From positions 2,935,215 through 2,985,999 of the forward strand of contig NW_018408896.1 in assembly GCF_002113885.1 (NCBI RefSeq): a stretch of 50,785 nucleotides of DNA, read 5' to 3'. Shown piece by piece: positions 46,364 to 49,449 of the stretch. The number at the start of each line of letters is the position of its first letter. The stretch's first letter is position 1. Below the pieces are notes generated by a model that was given only the letters and a program-made list of their open reading frames with translations, was not told where the DNA came from and ran no database searches. Position numbers and translations under genes: made by a program. The DNA comes from Mizuhopecten yessoensis. Taxonomy: Eukaryota.

Positions 46364-48550
46364 TTGGTCGTGTCAGACGACGAGTTTGGCCGGGAGGAAT
46401 GCAGTCCTCTCGGCTCAAGCTTAGGTCCTTCTCCCGCAGGATTAGGCTTCGGGTCAGCAGACGATTCTCTTGCCTGGCAAGGTCTCGATCTGCCTCGACC
46501 AGATCTTCCTGTGGGGGGTCGTCTTTCTGCTTTCCTTCCAGAGTGGAAGGAAATTACGGAAGACGCATGGACCTTGTCTGTGATCAAGGAGGGGTTAGGC
46601 ATTCCGCTAGTGCGGGATCCGCCCTTAGCGTCAGAGCCAATCTTTTTTCCTCCACCGGGGGATCCGGAAAAGGCTCTGGCGCTCCAGGAGGAAGTAAGGA
46701 CCATGCTTTCCAAGGGCGCGGTCGAGGAGGTTCCTATGTCGGGATGCACTCCCGGGTTCTACTCCAGAATGTTTCTGGTTCGGAAGAAGTCCGGGGCGTG
46801 GCGTCCCATCATAGATCTAAGTGCCTTCAACAAGCACGTAGATTCTCCTCACTTCAAGATGGAGACTCCTCGGGGTATTATCGCCTCCGTGAGAGAGGGA
46901 ATGTGGGCGACTTCAGTAGATCTAAAGGACGCCTACTTCCACATCCCCATCAAGAAGTCGGCACGGAAGTACCTCCGTTTTACTTGCAACGGAAAGGTCT
47001 TCCAGTTCCGGGCCATGCCGTTCGGGCTCACGACTGCACCTTTGGTTTTCACCAAGCTGCTGCAGGTGGTCGTGGGATTCCTGCACTCTCGAGGAATAGA
47101 TGTTCACATCTATTTCGACGACTCCCTCATGCTCCACCTAGTGAGAGAGTCTCTGGTACAGGTCACCCGGTTGGTTCTGAAACTCTTACTCAAGGTCGGC
47201 TTCATTCCTTCCAGAGAAAAGTCGGAGGTTTCCCCATCTCAGGATTTTGTTTTTCTGGGGAACCGTTTCAATACGGTTCAGGGCATCGCCCTTCCACCGA
47301 TGGAGAAGTTCGAGAAGGCCAGGGCTTTTGCTCTGACCTTTATCGGCCGGTCTCAAGTCCAGGTACGTTGGTTTCTCAGTTTTCTGGGATATCTCAACGC
47401 CCTGGCCGATGTGGTCCCCTTAGGGAGACTTCACATCAGGCCTCTCCAGATGTTTCTCCTTGCCAACTGGGTCCCTTCTTCAAGGGATTGGGAAGCCTTG
47501 CTTCCTCTGAACCAGTCGGTCAAGGAGTACGCACGCTGGTGGACTCATCAGGACAATGTTCTCCGAGGGGTTCCTTTGTCCAAGCCAGTTCCCACTATGA
47601 CCCTGTACACGGATGCATCCATGACAGGGTGGGGAGCTTATCTCGACGGGCGTTGCCAGTCGGGGGAGTGGTCTGGGGAACAGCTCTCGGAGCACAGCAA
47701 TGTGCTCGAGATGAGGGCTGTTCTGTTGGCTCTGCAGTCTTTTCGGGAGATCCTGCATTCCAAGGTGGTTTGTGTGGCTACGGACAACACTACGGTTGTC
47801 GCGTATCTGGAGAGACAGGGGGGAACCAGGTCTCACACCCTGTGTGCCCTCGCTATCCGCATTCTGCTTCTATGTCAGGAAATGCAGTTGACAATTTGTG
47901 TCAAGCATCTGCCAGGCAGGTTGAATGTTCTGGCGGATACTCTTTCCAGGCGCCGCCAGCCGGTTTTGACAGAGTGGCAACTGAATCCCTCGATTTTCGT
48001 GGGAATTTGTCAGGTGTGGGACAGGCCTCACATAGACCTGTTCGCCACTTCACTGAACAATCAGTTGCCAACGTTTGTCTCTCCGGTACCAGATCCAAGG
48101 GCTTGGGCCGTGGACGCTCTGTCTCTGGATTGGGAGGGAATGCATGCATATGCATTCCCACCCTTCAACATGGTGGGCAGGGTGCTGCAGAAGTTTCGGG
48201 AGCATCAGTGTTCCCTCCTCCTGATAGCGCCCCTGTGGCCGAGGCAGCCTTGGTTTCCGGAGCTTTTGTCGCTTCTGGTGGAAGAGCCCCTGGCTCTTCC
48301 TCTCAGAGCGAACCTCCTTCGCCAGCCTCGTTCCAGGACGATGCACTCTCGTCCGGAGATCCTCCACCTTCACGCGTGGAAGCTATCTCAGGAGGCCTCG
48401 CTCAGGCGGGCTTTTCTAGGGACGTGTCAGATCGCATCGCTCGATCAATTAGGGCTTCCTCATCTGCCGTCTACCAGTCACGATGGAAGATTTACTGTGA
48501 TTGGTGTGTCGGCAGGAAGGTTGATCCGATCAAGGCTACTGTCCAGGTGA
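46364..48550 (+). CDS. DIRS-like reverse transcriptase + RNase H (728 aa ORF in frame +2)
   Basis: RT motifs RPIIDLSAFNKHV, FRAMPFGLTTAPLVFTK and YFDDSLM (YxDD). RNase H motif LYTDASMTGWGAYL. DIRS-typical LLIAPLWPRQPWFPELL. Confidence 0.85.
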   Translation: MVVSDDEFGREECSPLGSSLGPSPAGLGFGSADDSLAWQGLDLPRPDLPVGGRLSAFLPEWKEITEDAWTLSVIKEGLGIPLVRDPPLASEPIFFPPPGDPEKALALQEEVRTMLSKGAVEEVPMSGCTPGFYSRMFLVRKKSGAWRPIIDLSAFNKHVDSPHFKMETPRGIIASVREGMWATSVDLKDAYFHIPIKKSARKYLRFTCNGKVFQFRAMPFGLTTAPLVFTKLLQVVVGFLHSRGIDVHIYFDDSLMLHLVRESLVQVTRLVLKLLLKVGFIPSREKSEVSPSQDFVFLGNRFNTVQGIALPPMEKFEKARAFALTFIGRSQVQVRWFLSFLGYLNALADVVPLGRLHIRPLQMFLLANWVPSSRDWEALLPLNQSVKEYARWWTHQDNVLRGVPLSKPVPTMTLYTDASMTGWGAYLDGRCQSGEWSGEQLSEHSNVLEMRAVLLALQSFREILHSKVVCVATDNTTVVAYLERQGGTRSHTLCALAIRILLLCQEMQLTICVKHLPGRLNVLADTLSRRRQPVLTEWQLNPSIFVGICQVWDRPHIDLFATSLNNQLPTFVSPVPDPRAWAVDALSLDWEGMHAYAFPPFNMVGRVLQKFREHQCSLLLIAPLWPRQPWFPELLSLLVEEPLALPLRANLLRQPRSRTMHSRPEILHLHAWKLSQEASLRRAFLGTCQIASLDQLGLPHLPSTSHDGRFTVIGVSAGRLIRSRLLSR

Positions 48551-49449
48551 TTGCGGACTTCCTTCTTTGGCTGTTTAGGGACCGCAATCTTGCCCCTGGC
48601 ACTATCGCTGGTTATCGCACGGCCATTGCTAGTGTTCTCTCTGTTCATGGTAGGTCGGAGGTAGGCTCGTCCTCCTCTCTTTCTGCCTTGATTAGGGGGT
48701 TTGGGTTGGACAGGCCTAGGGTCCGGCAGTTGGCTCCGCAGTGGAATTTGCCACTGGTGCTCGAATCGCTGATGCGGGCACCTTATGAGCCTTTAGCGTC
48801 TGCCTCCTTGAAGTTTGTTACTTACAAGGTGGTATTCCTTGTTGCCCTGGCCTCAGGTCGAAGGAGGAGTGAGATTCATGCCTTGTCTTCTCACCCCTCT
48901 TGCCTCCGATGGTCCAGGAATTACTCTGCCGTTACCCTTCTCACTGATCCTGCCTTTATGGCTAAGAATCAGGTTCCTGGCTTCTCGCCCGATCCGATTA
49001 AGATTCCGTCTTTGACTGCCTTCGTTGGAGCTGAGGAACGGGATAGGTTGCTCTGTCCCTGTCGGGCGCTTAGGTTTTACCTCGATAAAACCAGGGGGGG
49101 GCGAGGTCCTCGATCTCGTCTGTTTTTGCCCATTAAGCAGGGTCAACAGGATATCTCTTCTCAGTCAGTGTCTAGATGGATCTGTCAGGTCATCAAGTAC
49201 GGTTACGACCACTCGGATGATCAGGTTCGGGCGTTGTATAAGGTGAGAGCTCATGAGATCAGGGCCCTTGCTGCGTCATGGGCCCTCCTCAATGGGTCCC
49301 CCTTTCAGGAGGTCATGTCCGCAGCTTTCTGGCGCGGACAGACTACCTTCACGGATTTTTATCTCCGGTCCTTGGCCTCTCATTCTGATGGATTGTATTC
49401 CCTTGGACCGGTGGTGGTTGCACAGTCTGTGGCTGTTCCTCCACAGTAA
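48370..49449 (+). CDS. DIRS-like tyrosine recombinase (YR) domain, C-terminal ~350 aa of the frame +1 ORF 46399-49449
   Basis: N-terminal SAM-like core-binding region (RIARSIRASSSAVYQSRWKIYCDWC...GTIAGYRTAIASV). Catalytic region ...GRRRSEIHAL...RAHEIRALAASWAL...FTDFYLRS carries the R...HxxR...Y tyrosine-recombinase signature. Confidence 0.8.
   Translation, partial: SRVEAISGGLAQAGFSRDVSDRIARSIRASSSAVYQSRWKIYCDWCVGRKVDPIKATVQVIADFLLWLFRDRNLAPGTIAGYRTAIASVLSVHGRSEVGSSSSLSALIRGFGLDRPRVRQLAPQWNLPLVLESLMRAPYEPLASASLKFVTYKVVFLVALASGRRRSEIHALSSHPSCLRWSRNYSAVTLLTDPAFMAKNQVPGFSPDPIKIPSLTAFVGAEERDRLLCPCRALRFYLDKTRGGRGPRSRLFLPIKQGQQDISSQSVSRWICQVIKYGYDHSDDQVRALYKVRAHEIRALAASWALLNGSPFQEVMSAAFWRGQTTFTDFYLRSLASHSDGLYSLGPVVVAQSVAVPPQ

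What the first reader, a model, noticed from the sequence alone, without database searches (positions are those of the whole stretch)
46364..49449. DIRS-like pol lacks an obvious methyltransferase domain and is decoded across an RT/RH (+2) to YR (+1) frame switch with a ~2-kb stop-free overlap
In DIRS1-group elements a DNA N6-methyltransferase-like domain sits between RNase H and YR. Here RNase H/'LLIAPLWPRQPWFPELL' is followed within ~100 codons by the YR core-binding region. This suggests an MT-less lineage, or a strongly reduced MT, while the element keeps ITR/ICR ends rather than split direct repeats. The frame +1 ORF (46399-49449) stays open for ~650 codons while overlapping the RT/RH frame. 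In that overlap it encodes only low-complexity R/S/G-rich sequence. That length without stops is unlikely by chance at this GC content. It is reminiscent of the ORF2/ORF3 overlap of DIRS1, implying selection for an open overlapping frame or a programmed -1 frameshift/fusion near 48.35-48.55 kb.
Basis: inference. Interest (0 to 1): 0.55.

Follow-up and report, generated by a model that had tools for sequence, protein, structure and literature searches.

The report
Typical DIRS1-like retrotransposon, methyltransferase domain present
This is an intact, ordinary DIRS1-type jumping gene from a scallop-like genome: it does carry the family's methyltransferase-like domain, and its 2-kb stop-free overlap of the recombinase frame on the polymerase gene is real, kept open by selection, and a known trait of the family whose translation route is still unexplained.

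Summary
Frame +1 has no stop from 46348 to 49446. Synonymous shuffles of pol predict 37 ± 4 stops there.

The element (43223-50001) has textbook DIRS1-like ends: ITRs, two ICRs and a 3-bp AAA junction. It also has an intact Cre-like tyrosine recombinase (YR).

All 77 related loci with both pol and YR (38-90% pol identity) have the long open −1 frame, though some carry a single indel or a shorter overlap. Selection acts only against stops. The overlapping peptide is not conserved until about 48.4 kb.

There is no −1 slippery site at 48.33-48.55 kb, and pol is conserved up to its own stop.

One thing may be new. In most lineages gag and the long YR frame are one frame, split by a single stop in a leaky context (UGA-C or UAG-G). 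Pol lies in the +1 frame and has no AUG. This suggests recoding at the gag stop. That is inference, not shown.

The parts
43223..50001 (+). Complete DIRS1-like retrotransposon (6779 bp). It begins TTT and ends TTT.
   Evidence: Termini are defined by complementarity to the internal complementary regions. GC is 54-61% against 30-40% in the flanks.
43223..43379 (+). Left terminus. The conserved inverted terminal repeat is 43233-43379; the outer part pairs only with the left ICR.
   Evidence: The 147-nt inverted repeat is 99% complementary to 49818-49964. 43223-43259 is the exact reverse complement of 49654-49690.
43807..46347 (+). gag-like ORF1 (frame 1). The frame is open from 43708, the first ATG is at 43807, and the stop is TGA at 46345-46347 in the context UCC UGA CUC.
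   Evidence: It is 57% identical to the upstream ORF of relative L001. There is a weak LAP2alpha (PF11560) hit, E = 0.025. Xenopus DIRS-like gag proteins carry that domain (PMC9210276).
46169..48550 (+). pol ORF (frame 2, +1 relative to gag), encoding RT, RNase H and the MT-like domain. There is no ATG upstream of the conserved PVGGRL motif. The stop is TGA at 48548-48550.
46778..47263 (+). Reverse transcriptase domain, with VDLKDAY and the YFDD motif at 47111-47122.
   Evidence: Pfam RVT_1, E = 5e-22. Motifs confirmed.
47594..47950 (+). RNase H domain, with TDAS D417, E449, D474 and ADTLSR D525.
   Evidence: Pfam RT_RNaseH, E = 1.3e-4. These are invariant columns in 40 homologues. Motifs confirmed.
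47951..48379 (+). Methyltransferase-like domain (DIRS1 'MT'). DLFA is at 48035, AFPP at 48152-48163 and PLW at 48230-48238.
46348..48372 (+). 'X': the stop-free part of the YR frame (frame 1, −1 relative to pol) that overprints pol. It is S/G/R-rich, and only stop codons are selected against.
48373..48547 (+). Truly dual-coding stretch. The conserved pol C-terminal tail (frame 2) and the conserved start of the YR protein (frame 1) overlap here.
   Evidence: Entropy at pol fourfold sites drops from 1.7-1.95 to 1.14 bits at 48400-48549. Both frames have conserved columns.
48373..49449 (+). Tyrosine recombinase. The SAM-like core-binding domain is about 48460-48714. Catalytic residues are R 48862, K 48964, H 49252, R 49261, W 49330 and Y 49360. 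The stop is TAA at 49447-49449.
   Evidence: A profile of 41 relatives hits Cre at E = 4.6e-8 in both domains. Pfam Phage_int_SAM and Phage_integrase hit 16-23 of 41 members. Residues confirmed.
49654..49745 (+). Internal complementary region. The left ICR is 49654-49690 and the right ICR is 49688-49745. They overlap on the 3-bp circular junction AAA (49688-49690).
49818..50001 (+). Right terminus. The conserved ITR is 49818-49964, followed by an outer part and extension that pair with the right ICR.
46382..46422 (+). Predicted 17-bp RNA hairpin 35 nt downstream of the gag stop. Its function is not established.
   Evidence: Folding 46340-46460 gives −49.6 kcal/mol, z = −3.2. Across lineages the signal is only weak.

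Best explanation
The region is the pol-YR part of an intact, probably recently inserted DIRS1-like retrotransposon (43223-50001).

Shown:
- Pol encodes RT, RNase H and the family's methyltransferase-like domain. Nothing is missing.
- The recombinase sits at the 3' end of a very long ORF in the −1 frame relative to pol. That ORF overprints the whole of pol.
- The overprinted ~675 codons ('X') are kept free of stop codons by purifying selection. Their amino-acid sequence is otherwise unconstrained. Conservation in the YR frame begins only at about 48.37-48.4 kb.
- This is the 'long ORF overlap' already described for DIRS1-like elements.

Inferred:
- Ribosomes must traverse X to reach the recombinase.
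- In the window and in most related lineages, X continues the gag frame after a single stop in a leaky context (UGA-C here). Its first AUG is not conserved.
- The most economical route is therefore read-through of the gag stop, giving a Gag-X-YR fusion in which X is a long disordered linker.
- Pol, in the +1 frame and with no AUG of its own, would be reached by a +1 shift at or just before the same stop, giving Gag-Pol.
For: Identity:
- ITRs, two ICRs and the AAA junction complementary to the TTT termini.
- RT/RH Pfam hits.
- MT-like fold and the published motifs.
- Cre-like YR with the R-K-H-R-W-Y residues.
- 99% identical ITRs and three intact ORFs.

Selection for an open frame:
- 1 stop observed against 37.3 ± 4.3 expected.
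- T before AA/AG/GA codons is 0/140 in the overlap, against 14-27% before AC/AT/GC/GT.

Conservation:
- Of 77 related loci with both genes, about 70 show a 1.7-2.4 kb overlap directly.
- The exceptions are the same layout plus one indel or an N-gap.

No constraint on the X sequence:
- Pol fourfold-site entropy is 1.7-1.95 bits across 46.45-48.4 kb.
- X dN/dS is 1.7-2.4, against 0.13 for pol.

Route through the gag stop:
- gag and YR share one frame, split by one stop, in 44 of 55 loci and in 21 of 23 lineages below 55% pol identity.
- The first AUG of X is at codon 17 in the window but at codon 542 in L002, its 90% identical relative.
- The gag stop is TGA-C in 19/23 and TAG-G in 16/20 cases, and TAA in 1/44. 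Pol and YR stops give 2/16, 13/48 and 17/81 respectively (Fisher 1.8e-5, 1e-4, 3e-3).
- 'GTTCCTGACTCT' is conserved in a 67% identical relative whose flanks do not align.
- Most loci have no ATG in the pol frame upstream of the conserved PVGGRL motif.
Against: - No expression data exist. Read-through and the +1 shift are inferred from layout and stop context only.
- One sub-lineage (L036, L037, L038, L055, L057, L064) has stops in the first 500-670 nt of X. In three of those loci an ATG sits at codon 4 of the shorter ORF, so read-through from gag cannot be universal.
- About half of the loci do have an ATG within 20-45 codons after the gag stop. Re-initiation is therefore not excluded for them.
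- Predicted RNA structure downstream of the gag stop is strong in the window (z −3.2) but only weakly enriched across lineages (mean z −1.66 against −0.89 for controls).
- The loci are metagenome contigs of unknown hosts and are phylogenetically related, so the counts overstate independence.
- If gag-to-pol must be +1 and pol-to-YR must be −1 for separate reasons, gag and YR would share a frame automatically.
Confidence: 0.6

Rival explanations
1. Ribosomes translating pol slip −1 near 48.35-48.55 kb and continue into the recombinase, giving an RT-RH-MT-YR fusion.
For: The YR frame is −1 relative to pol in all relatives. The two frames overlap at the right place.
Against: - There is no X XXY YYZ heptamer in the pol frame at 48330-48550. 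The only two in all of pol are G-runs at 46513 and 47818.
- Pol-frame residues remain conserved up to the pol stop.
- A local slip gives no reason to keep the frame open for 2 kb upstream, exactly back to the gag stop.
- The two loci where pol and YR look fused (L059, L061) are single-indel variants that still have the open X frame.
Confidence: 0.06
2. X-YR is translated on its own, not fused to Gag. Initiation would be at the AUG at 46399 (or another start in X) by re-initiation after termination at the gag stop, by internal entry, or from a subgenomic or spliced RNA.
For: - The window has an AUG 54 nt after the gag stop with a purine at −3.
- About half of the relatives have an AUG 20-45 codons after the gag stop.
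- The L036 group has an ATG at codon 4 of a shorter X-YR ORF.
Against: - The AUG is not conserved even in the 90% identical L002, where it is GTG and the first AUG is at codon 542. Many lineages have their first AUG more than 200 codons in.
- The model does not explain why X is in the gag frame, or why the gag stop sits in leaky contexts.
Confidence: 0.22
3. The open frame is a by-product of base composition or codon usage. X is never translated.
For: GC of about 55% lowers stop frequency somewhat. The X sequence itself is unconstrained.
Against: - Shuffles that keep the protein and codon usage give 37 stops, with a minimum of 24.
- The +1 frame of pol has 42 stops.
- gag and the YR C-terminal part, with the same composition, carry 6-7% stops in their −1 frames.
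- Only stop-forming T|AA, T|AG and T|GA junctions are absent.
- The frame stays open in lineages down to 38% pol identity.
Confidence: 0.01
4. This is an MT-less, or strongly MT-reduced, DIRS lineage.
For: No Pfam MT hit passes threshold in the window protein (Dam E = 0.34). The PDB sequence profile search found no MTase.
Against: - The MTase fold is predicted with high confidence and matched.
- The AFPP and PxW motifs and their 78-nt spacing are identical to 28 reference DIRS1-like elements.
- The domain length and position are the same in 40 homologues.
Confidence: 0.01

Closest known systems
DIRS1-like retrotransposons with a 'long ORF overlap' (Dictyostelium DIRS-1; AcDIRS2, TnDIRS1a, XtDIRS2/3 and the fungal elements in Piednoel et al. 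2011, PMC3266345)
   Same: - Three ORFs: gag, RT-RH-MT and YR.
- ITRs, and two ICRs overlapping on a 3-bp junction complementary to the NTT termini.
- The YR ORF extensively overlaps pol, with the catalytic part in the non-overlapping 3' end.
- The motif set DLKDAY / Y(L/I/F)DD / TDAS / ADxLSR / AFPP / PxW.
   Different: - At 6779 bp it is larger than the 28 elements tabulated (3974-6283 bp), because gag is long.
- The host is a pectinid-like bivalve.
- The YR motif is AHEIR rather than HSTR.
Molluscan DIRS1-like elements described so far (AcaDIRS1/2 from Aplysia, LgDIRS1-3 from Lottia)
   Same: Same superfamily, same termini logic and same MT motifs.
   Different: The 2011 survey reported no long ORF overlap in Mollusca. 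This element and its scallop and mussel relatives have a 2.2-kb overlap.
Ngaro and PAT-like YR retrotransposons
   Same: gag, RT/RH and YR are present. DDE integrase and protease are absent.
   Different: Ngaro lacks the MT domain and has split direct repeats. PAT has the MT domain but split direct repeats. The window has both the MT domain and ITR/ICR ends.
Gammaretrovirus (MLV) gag-pol stop-codon read-through, and 'shifty stop' +1 frameshifting (antizyme UCC UGA; RF2). These are cited from general knowledge, as analogies only.
   Same: A single in-frame stop at the end of gag is followed by a long open frame. The stop sits in UGA-C or UAG-G contexts. In the window the stop is preceded by UCC, as in antizyme.
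   Different: - No experimental evidence exists here.
- The downstream frame encodes an unconstrained spacer overprinted on pol, not pol itself.
- No conserved pseudoknot was demonstrated.
N6-adenine methyltransferases (phage Dam PF05869, T4 Dam, PCIF1, KsgA/Erm)
   Same: The class-I MTase fold. The PP core of motif IV is at the equivalent place.
   Different: Motif IV reads (A)FPPF or YPPT, not (D/N/S)PP(Y/F/W), in all 40 homologues aligned. Activity is unknown, and the literature also calls the function unknown.

Membership tests
DIRS1-like superfamily (order DIRS) | Ty3/gypsy-type RT and RNase H with the motifs DLKDAY, Y(L/I/F)DD, TDAS and ADxLSR | tested here: met
   RVT_1 E = 5e-22 and RT_RNaseH E = 1.3e-4. 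VDLKDAY, YFDD, YTDAS and ADTLSR are present, matching the motif list in PMC3266345 Additional file 3.
DIRS1-like superfamily (order DIRS) | Methyltransferase-like domain downstream of RNase H (motifs AFPP and PxW; Dam-like) | tested here: met
DIRS1-like superfamily (order DIRS) | Tyrosine recombinase in place of a DDE integrase | tested here: met
   The profile hits Cre at E = 4.6e-8. Phage_integrase and SAM-like domains hit 16-23 of 41 relatives. R, K, H, R, W and Y are invariant. No rve or protease hit.
DIRS1-like superfamily (order DIRS) | Inverted terminal repeats | tested here: met
   147-nt arms at 43233-43379 and 49818-49964, 99% complementary.
DIRS1-like superfamily (order DIRS) | Two internal complementary regions, each complementary to one terminus, overlapping on a 3-bp circular junction that complements the terminal trinucleotides | tested here: met
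   The left ICR 49654-49690 is the reverse complement of 43223-43259. The right ICR 49688-49745 is the reverse complement of 49944-50001. The shared AAA is at 49688-49690, and the element starts and ends TTT.
DIRS1-like superfamily (order DIRS) | gag-like ORF1 (LAP2alpha-related in animal elements) | tested here: inconclusive
   An 854-aa ORF lies upstream of pol. LAP2alpha PF11560 scores only E = 0.025, below threshold. The ORF is homologous to the upstream ORF of relatives.
DIRS1-like superfamily (order DIRS) | No target-site duplication | tested here: met
   The flanks read ...AACAG|TTT... and ...TTT|AAAGT... with no direct repeat. This rests on a single copy only.
Ngaro / PAT-like | Split direct repeats (A1-B1-A2-B2). 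Ngaro also has no MT domain. | tested here: not met
   The repeats are inverted, with ICRs, and the MT-like domain is present.
Catalytically active N6-adenine methyltransferase | Motif IV (D/N/S)PP(Y/F/W) | tested here: not met
   The window has AFPPF. The 40 homologues have F/Y-PP-F/T/L/W/A, never D/N/S at the first position. SAM binding was not tested.
Programmed −1 ribosomal frameshift site (pol to YR) | Slippery heptamer X XXY YYZ in the upstream frame, plus a downstream structure | tested here: not met
   There is no heptamer at 48330-48550. Only G GGG GGT (46513) and G GGG GGA (47818) occur elsewhere in pol.
Programmed stop-codon read-through (gag to X-YR) | A single in-frame stop in a leaky context, followed by a long open frame conserved among relatives | tested here: met
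   The window has UCC UGA CUC. 44 of 55 loci and 21 of 23 lineages have the single in-frame stop. TGA-C is found in 19/23 and TAG-G in 16/20 cases, and TAA in 1/44, unlike the pol and YR stops.
Programmed stop-codon read-through (gag to X-YR) | Demonstrated read-through product | not testable with these tools
   This needs reporter assays, ribosome profiling or proteomics.

The most novel reading that the evidence does not exclude
In this clade of DIRS1-like elements the gag stop codon would be a three-way recoding point on a single mRNA:
- termination gives Gag;
- a +1 shift at or next to the stop gives Gag-Pol, since pol has no AUG;
- read-through gives Gag-X-YR.

X would be a ~650-residue spacer overprinted on the whole of pol and selected only to stay free of stop codons. 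In an element that has no protease, it would act as a disordered tether that takes the recombinase into the particle.
Probability: 0.35. Interest if true: 0.7.

Novelty: new member of a known kind. Interest (0 to 1): 0.38.

Why it matters
As filed, the finding is mostly a correction. The element is a standard DIRS1-like retrotransposon with its methyltransferase-like domain, and the long pol/YR overlap is a published trait.

Three things add something:
- The work gives a quantitative demonstration that the overlap frame is maintained purely by selection against stop codons, across lineages down to 38% pol identity, with no constraint on the encoded peptide.
- It shows that bivalve elements have the long overlap, which a 2011 survey did not find in molluscs.
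- It reveals a comparative pattern that turns an unaddressed question into a testable hypothesis. The pattern is gag and YR in one frame across a single leaky-context stop, with pol in the +1 frame and no AUG. The question is how DIRS elements translate pol and the recombinase from one mRNA.

Tried and rejected
- A profile search of PDB sequences with the MT-domain alignment gave only chance-level hits (TIRAP, CT_858; E about 0.5). The fold search was needed.
- NCBIfam on the YR region returned nothing. Single-sequence Pfam on the 1016-aa ORF also returned nothing. A profile of 41 relatives was needed.
- I briefly doubted the idea that gag and YR share a frame, because L001 (88% relative) has gag in another frame. 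L001 turned out to have a 100-N scaffold gap at the gag stop.
- The apparent pol-YR in-frame fusions (L059, L061) and the 'no overlap' loci (L024, L044, L047, L069) are all single-indel variants of the same layout.
- RNA structure downstream of the gag stop is strong in the window (z −3.2). Across 22 lineages it is only marginally stronger than in control segments, so I do not rely on it.
- Literature searches for DIRS plus read-through or frameshifting found nothing relevant. The Goodwin & Poulter 2001 and Poulter & Butler 2015 papers are not held, so prior description of the gag/YR frame relation cannot be excluded.
- The Argopecten irradians locus L082 holds two copies only 84% identical in DNA to the window element. 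One is decayed. The other, 5'-truncated, aligns with the window's overlap-frame protein as one unbroken tblastn match of about 1.8 kb, so the frame appears open there; stops were not counted for L082. The window is therefore from a related family or species, not that exact copy.
- L083 was not available to the script.

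
Full report
**Observation.** The ORF list confirms both reading frames at the stated coordinates: 46364-48550 (frame 2, 728 aa) and 46399-49449 (frame 1, 1016 aa). A stop-codon map of 43-50.8 kb shows that frame 1 has stops only at 43705, 46345 and 49447. 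Frame 2 is open from 46169 to 48547. Frame 3 carries about 35 stops across the overlap. The stop-free overlap therefore runs for 2.2 kb, from the codon after the gag stop (46348) to the pol stop (48548).

**Significance of the overlap.**
- Shuffling synonymous codons within pol, which keeps the protein and codon usage, gives 37.3 ± 4.3 stops in the −1 frame, with a minimum of 24 in 1000 trials. One is observed, and it is the gag stop. The Poisson probability of zero is about 6e-17.
- gag and the non-overlapping recombinase part of the same element carry 54/879 and 20/298 stops in their own −1 frames, as their shuffles predict.
- The mechanism is visible at codon junctions. In the overlap, T never precedes a codon starting AA, AG or GA (0/140). 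It precedes AC, AT, GC and GT codons in 14-27% of cases.

**The methyltransferase claim.** Pfam finds RVT_1 (aa 139-300) and RT_RNaseH (aa 411-485). It also gives a sub-threshold Dam PF05869 match at aa 535-610 (E = 0.34).
- In an alignment of 40 homologues (39-88% identity), the region after RNase H is among the best conserved. Its invariant or near-invariant residues include D558-L-F-A, S573-P-x-P-D, W590, Y596-A-x-P-P, K610, A622-P-x-W-P and W630-F.
- Seven of the 40 homologues hit Dam weakly (best E = 0.0064). No other non-RT/RH family recurs.
- An AlphaFold2 model of aa 530-672 (window 47951-48379), built with 34 aligned homologues, has mean pLDDT 90.4.
- Additional file 3 of Piednoel et al. 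2011 lists the DIRS1-like MT motifs as AFPP and PxW. The window has AFPP at 48152-48163 and PLW at 48230-48238. They are 78 nt apart, exactly as in the reference elements.

One caveat applies. Motif IV reads F/Y-PP-x rather than (D/N/S)PP(Y/F/W) in every homologue, so catalytic activity is doubtful. The literature also calls the function unknown.

**What the element is.**
- The inverted repeats at 43233-43379 and 49818-49964 are 99% complementary.
- 49654-49690 is the exact reverse complement of the left end, 43223-43259.
- 49688-49745 is the exact reverse complement of the right end, 49944-50001.
- The two internal complementary regions share AAA (49688-49690). The element begins and ends with TTT.
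- This is precisely the DIRS1-like terminus and circular-junction model.
- A profile of the C-terminal 370 residues of the long ORF, built from 41 relatives, hits Cre recombinase at E = 4.6e-8 in both the core-binding and the catalytic regions. Pfam integrase families hit 16-23 of the 41 members.
- R176, K210, H306, R309, W332 and Y342 are invariant.
- The best named protein relatives are from scallops (Argopecten irradians, Mizuhopecten) and mussels.
- With three intact ORFs and near-identical ITRs, this looks like a young, potentially active copy.

**Is the overlap conserved?** I obtained 81 related loci: one through an exact-protein look-up and 80 from a metagenome scan with the pol alignment. 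Their pol identity to the window is 38-90%.
- In 77 loci both pol and YR are present.
- In about 70 of them YR is in the −1 frame relative to pol and the two ORFs overlap by 1.7-2.4 kb.
- Every apparent exception resolves to the same layout plus one indel (L024, L044, L047, L059, L061, L069) or a scaffold gap (L001).
The open frame is conserved.

**What is selected.**
- Between the window and its relatives at 67-90% identity, pol has dN/dS of 0.12-0.15. The X frame has 1.7-2.4, the signature of a frame that rides on pol.
- Pol dS is only moderately lower than in gag or the YR C-terminal part (0.40 against 0.45 and 0.77 for the closest pair).
- Across 52 loci, third positions of conserved fourfold pol codons have 1.7-1.95 bits of entropy all the way from 46.45 to 48.4 kb. 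Entropy falls to 1.14 bits only at 48.40-48.55 kb.
- X (46348 to about 48372) is therefore constrained only not to contain stops.
- Real dual coding is confined to the last ~175 nt of pol. There the conserved start of the recombinase overlaps the conserved pol tail.

**How the recombinase is reached.** A −1 slip near 48.35-48.55 kb is unsupported.
- No X XXY YYZ site lies there.
- Pol is conserved to its stop.
- A local slip would not require 2 kb of open frame upstream.

The comparative data instead point to the gag stop.
- In the window, gag (frame 1) and X-YR (frame 1) are separated by the single TGA at 46345.
- The same holds in 44 of 55 relatives with a recognisable gag, and in 21 of 23 lineages defined at 55% pol identity.
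- The first AUG of X is not conserved. It is at codon 17 in the window and codon 542 in the 90% identical L002. In many lineages it lies more than 200 codons in.
- The gag stop is TGA-C in 19/23 cases and TAG-G in 16/20, and TAA only once in 44. Pol and YR stops of the same loci are TGA-C in 2/16, TAG-G in 13/48 and TAA in 17/81. From general knowledge, UGA-C and UAG-G are the classic leaky contexts.
- Pol lies in the +1 frame relative to gag. It opens 53-512 nt before the gag stop. In most loci, including the window, it has no ATG before its conserved PVGGRL motif. In one lineage that motif starts five codons after the stop.
- 'GTTCCTGACTCT' around the stop is conserved in a 67% identical relative whose flanks no longer align.

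I therefore infer, but have not shown, that the gag stop is a recoding point: read-through into X-YR and a +1 shift into pol.

Several caveats apply.
- A sub-lineage has a closed 5' part of X and an ATG-headed shorter ORF.
- Half of the loci have an early AUG, so re-initiation is possible for them.
- Structure downstream of the stop is convincing in the window (hairpin 46382-46422, z −3.2) but weak across lineages.
- The loci are not phylogenetically independent.

**Comparison with what is known.** The literature in reach describes the following:
- A long overlap was found in half of 28 annotated elements and in none from Mollusca.
- The ORFs are 'frequently extensively overlapped'.
- The MT domain is detected with Pfam Dam.
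- Dictyostelium DIRS-1 is a single 4.5-kb mRNA with three overlapping ORFs.
- No held paper discusses read-through or frameshifting in DIRS elements. The primary Goodwin & Poulter papers are not held.

**Verdict.** The MT-less interpretation is wrong, and the proposed local −1 frameshift is unsupported. The element is a new member of a known kind. The gag-stop pattern is the one lead worth following.

Noticed in passing
window 46345-46347 and relatives L002-L081: gag and the long YR ORF lie in one frame separated by a single stop. This holds in 44 of 55 loci and in 21 of 23 lineages. The stop is almost always TGA-C or TAG-G and almost never TAA, unlike the pol and YR stops of the same elements.
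   Followed up: partly
window 46169-46700: The pol frame has no ATG between its opening at 46169 and codon 112 of the listed ORF. That is downstream of the conserved PVGGRL…W…G…P N-terminal region, so pol cannot start at an AUG of its own. It is +1 relative to gag. The sequence UCC UGA C at the gag stop resembles the antizyme shift site.
   Followed up: partly
window 46382-46422: A 17-bp hairpin begins 35 nt after the gag stop (z −3.2). Its loop holds the ATG at 46399. L002 shows one compensatory C-G to A-U change and one broken pair.
   Followed up: partly
L036, L037, L038, L055, L057, L064: In this sub-lineage the first 500-670 nt of the overlap frame contain several stops. gag-to-pol is −1 in five of these six loci and +1 in L055. 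In three loci an ATG sits at codon 4 of the shorter (about 1.7 kb overlap) YR ORF. This would be a different expression route.
   Followed up: partly
window 46348-48547 (pol codon junctions): T at pol third positions is depleted before stop-forming AA/AG/GA codons (0%). It is also depleted before AT and GG codons (14% and 9%, against 36-41% before C-starting codons), but not clearly before AC (25%). In the 51 related loci the depletion extends to AC, AT and GG (11-14% against 35-37%). It looks like a buffer against one-step mutations to a stop.
   Followed up: no
window 45985-46128 (gag aa 735-782): There is a weak LAP2alpha (PF11560) match, E = 0.025. This fits the reported LAP2alpha-like domain of animal DIRS gag proteins.
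   Followed up: no
window 50429-50785: A tandem array of a 72-nt unit (4-5 copies, 91-96% identical) lies about 430 bp beyond the right end of the element and runs off the window.
   Followed up: no
window 42817-43164 (both strands): Low-complexity ORFs lie just left of the element: RGRGRG, poly-K and acidic S/D runs on the minus strand, and PRPLPRPLP on the plus strand. A 12-nt periodic repeat is at 42953-43018. Their nature is unknown.
   Followed up: no
proteins P0031, P0050, P0104: Close DIRS pol homologues are deposited as proteins of bacterial MAGs (Candidatus Thiodiazotropha symbionts of clams, and a Dehalococcoidia bacterium). This is most likely host-animal contamination of the bins.
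   Followed up: no
L082 (Argopecten irradians JAYEEO010000241.1): Two copies of an 84% identical element lie head to tail within 9 kb. One has a frameshifted pol. The other is 5'-truncated at element position about 3545 and aligns with the window's overlap-frame protein as one unbroken tblastn match (about 1.8 kb), so the frame appears open; stops were not counted.
   Followed up: partly
L001 3214-3313: A 100-N scaffold gap sits exactly over the gag stop region. It produces a spurious frame relation in this otherwise closest metagenomic relative.
   Followed up: yes
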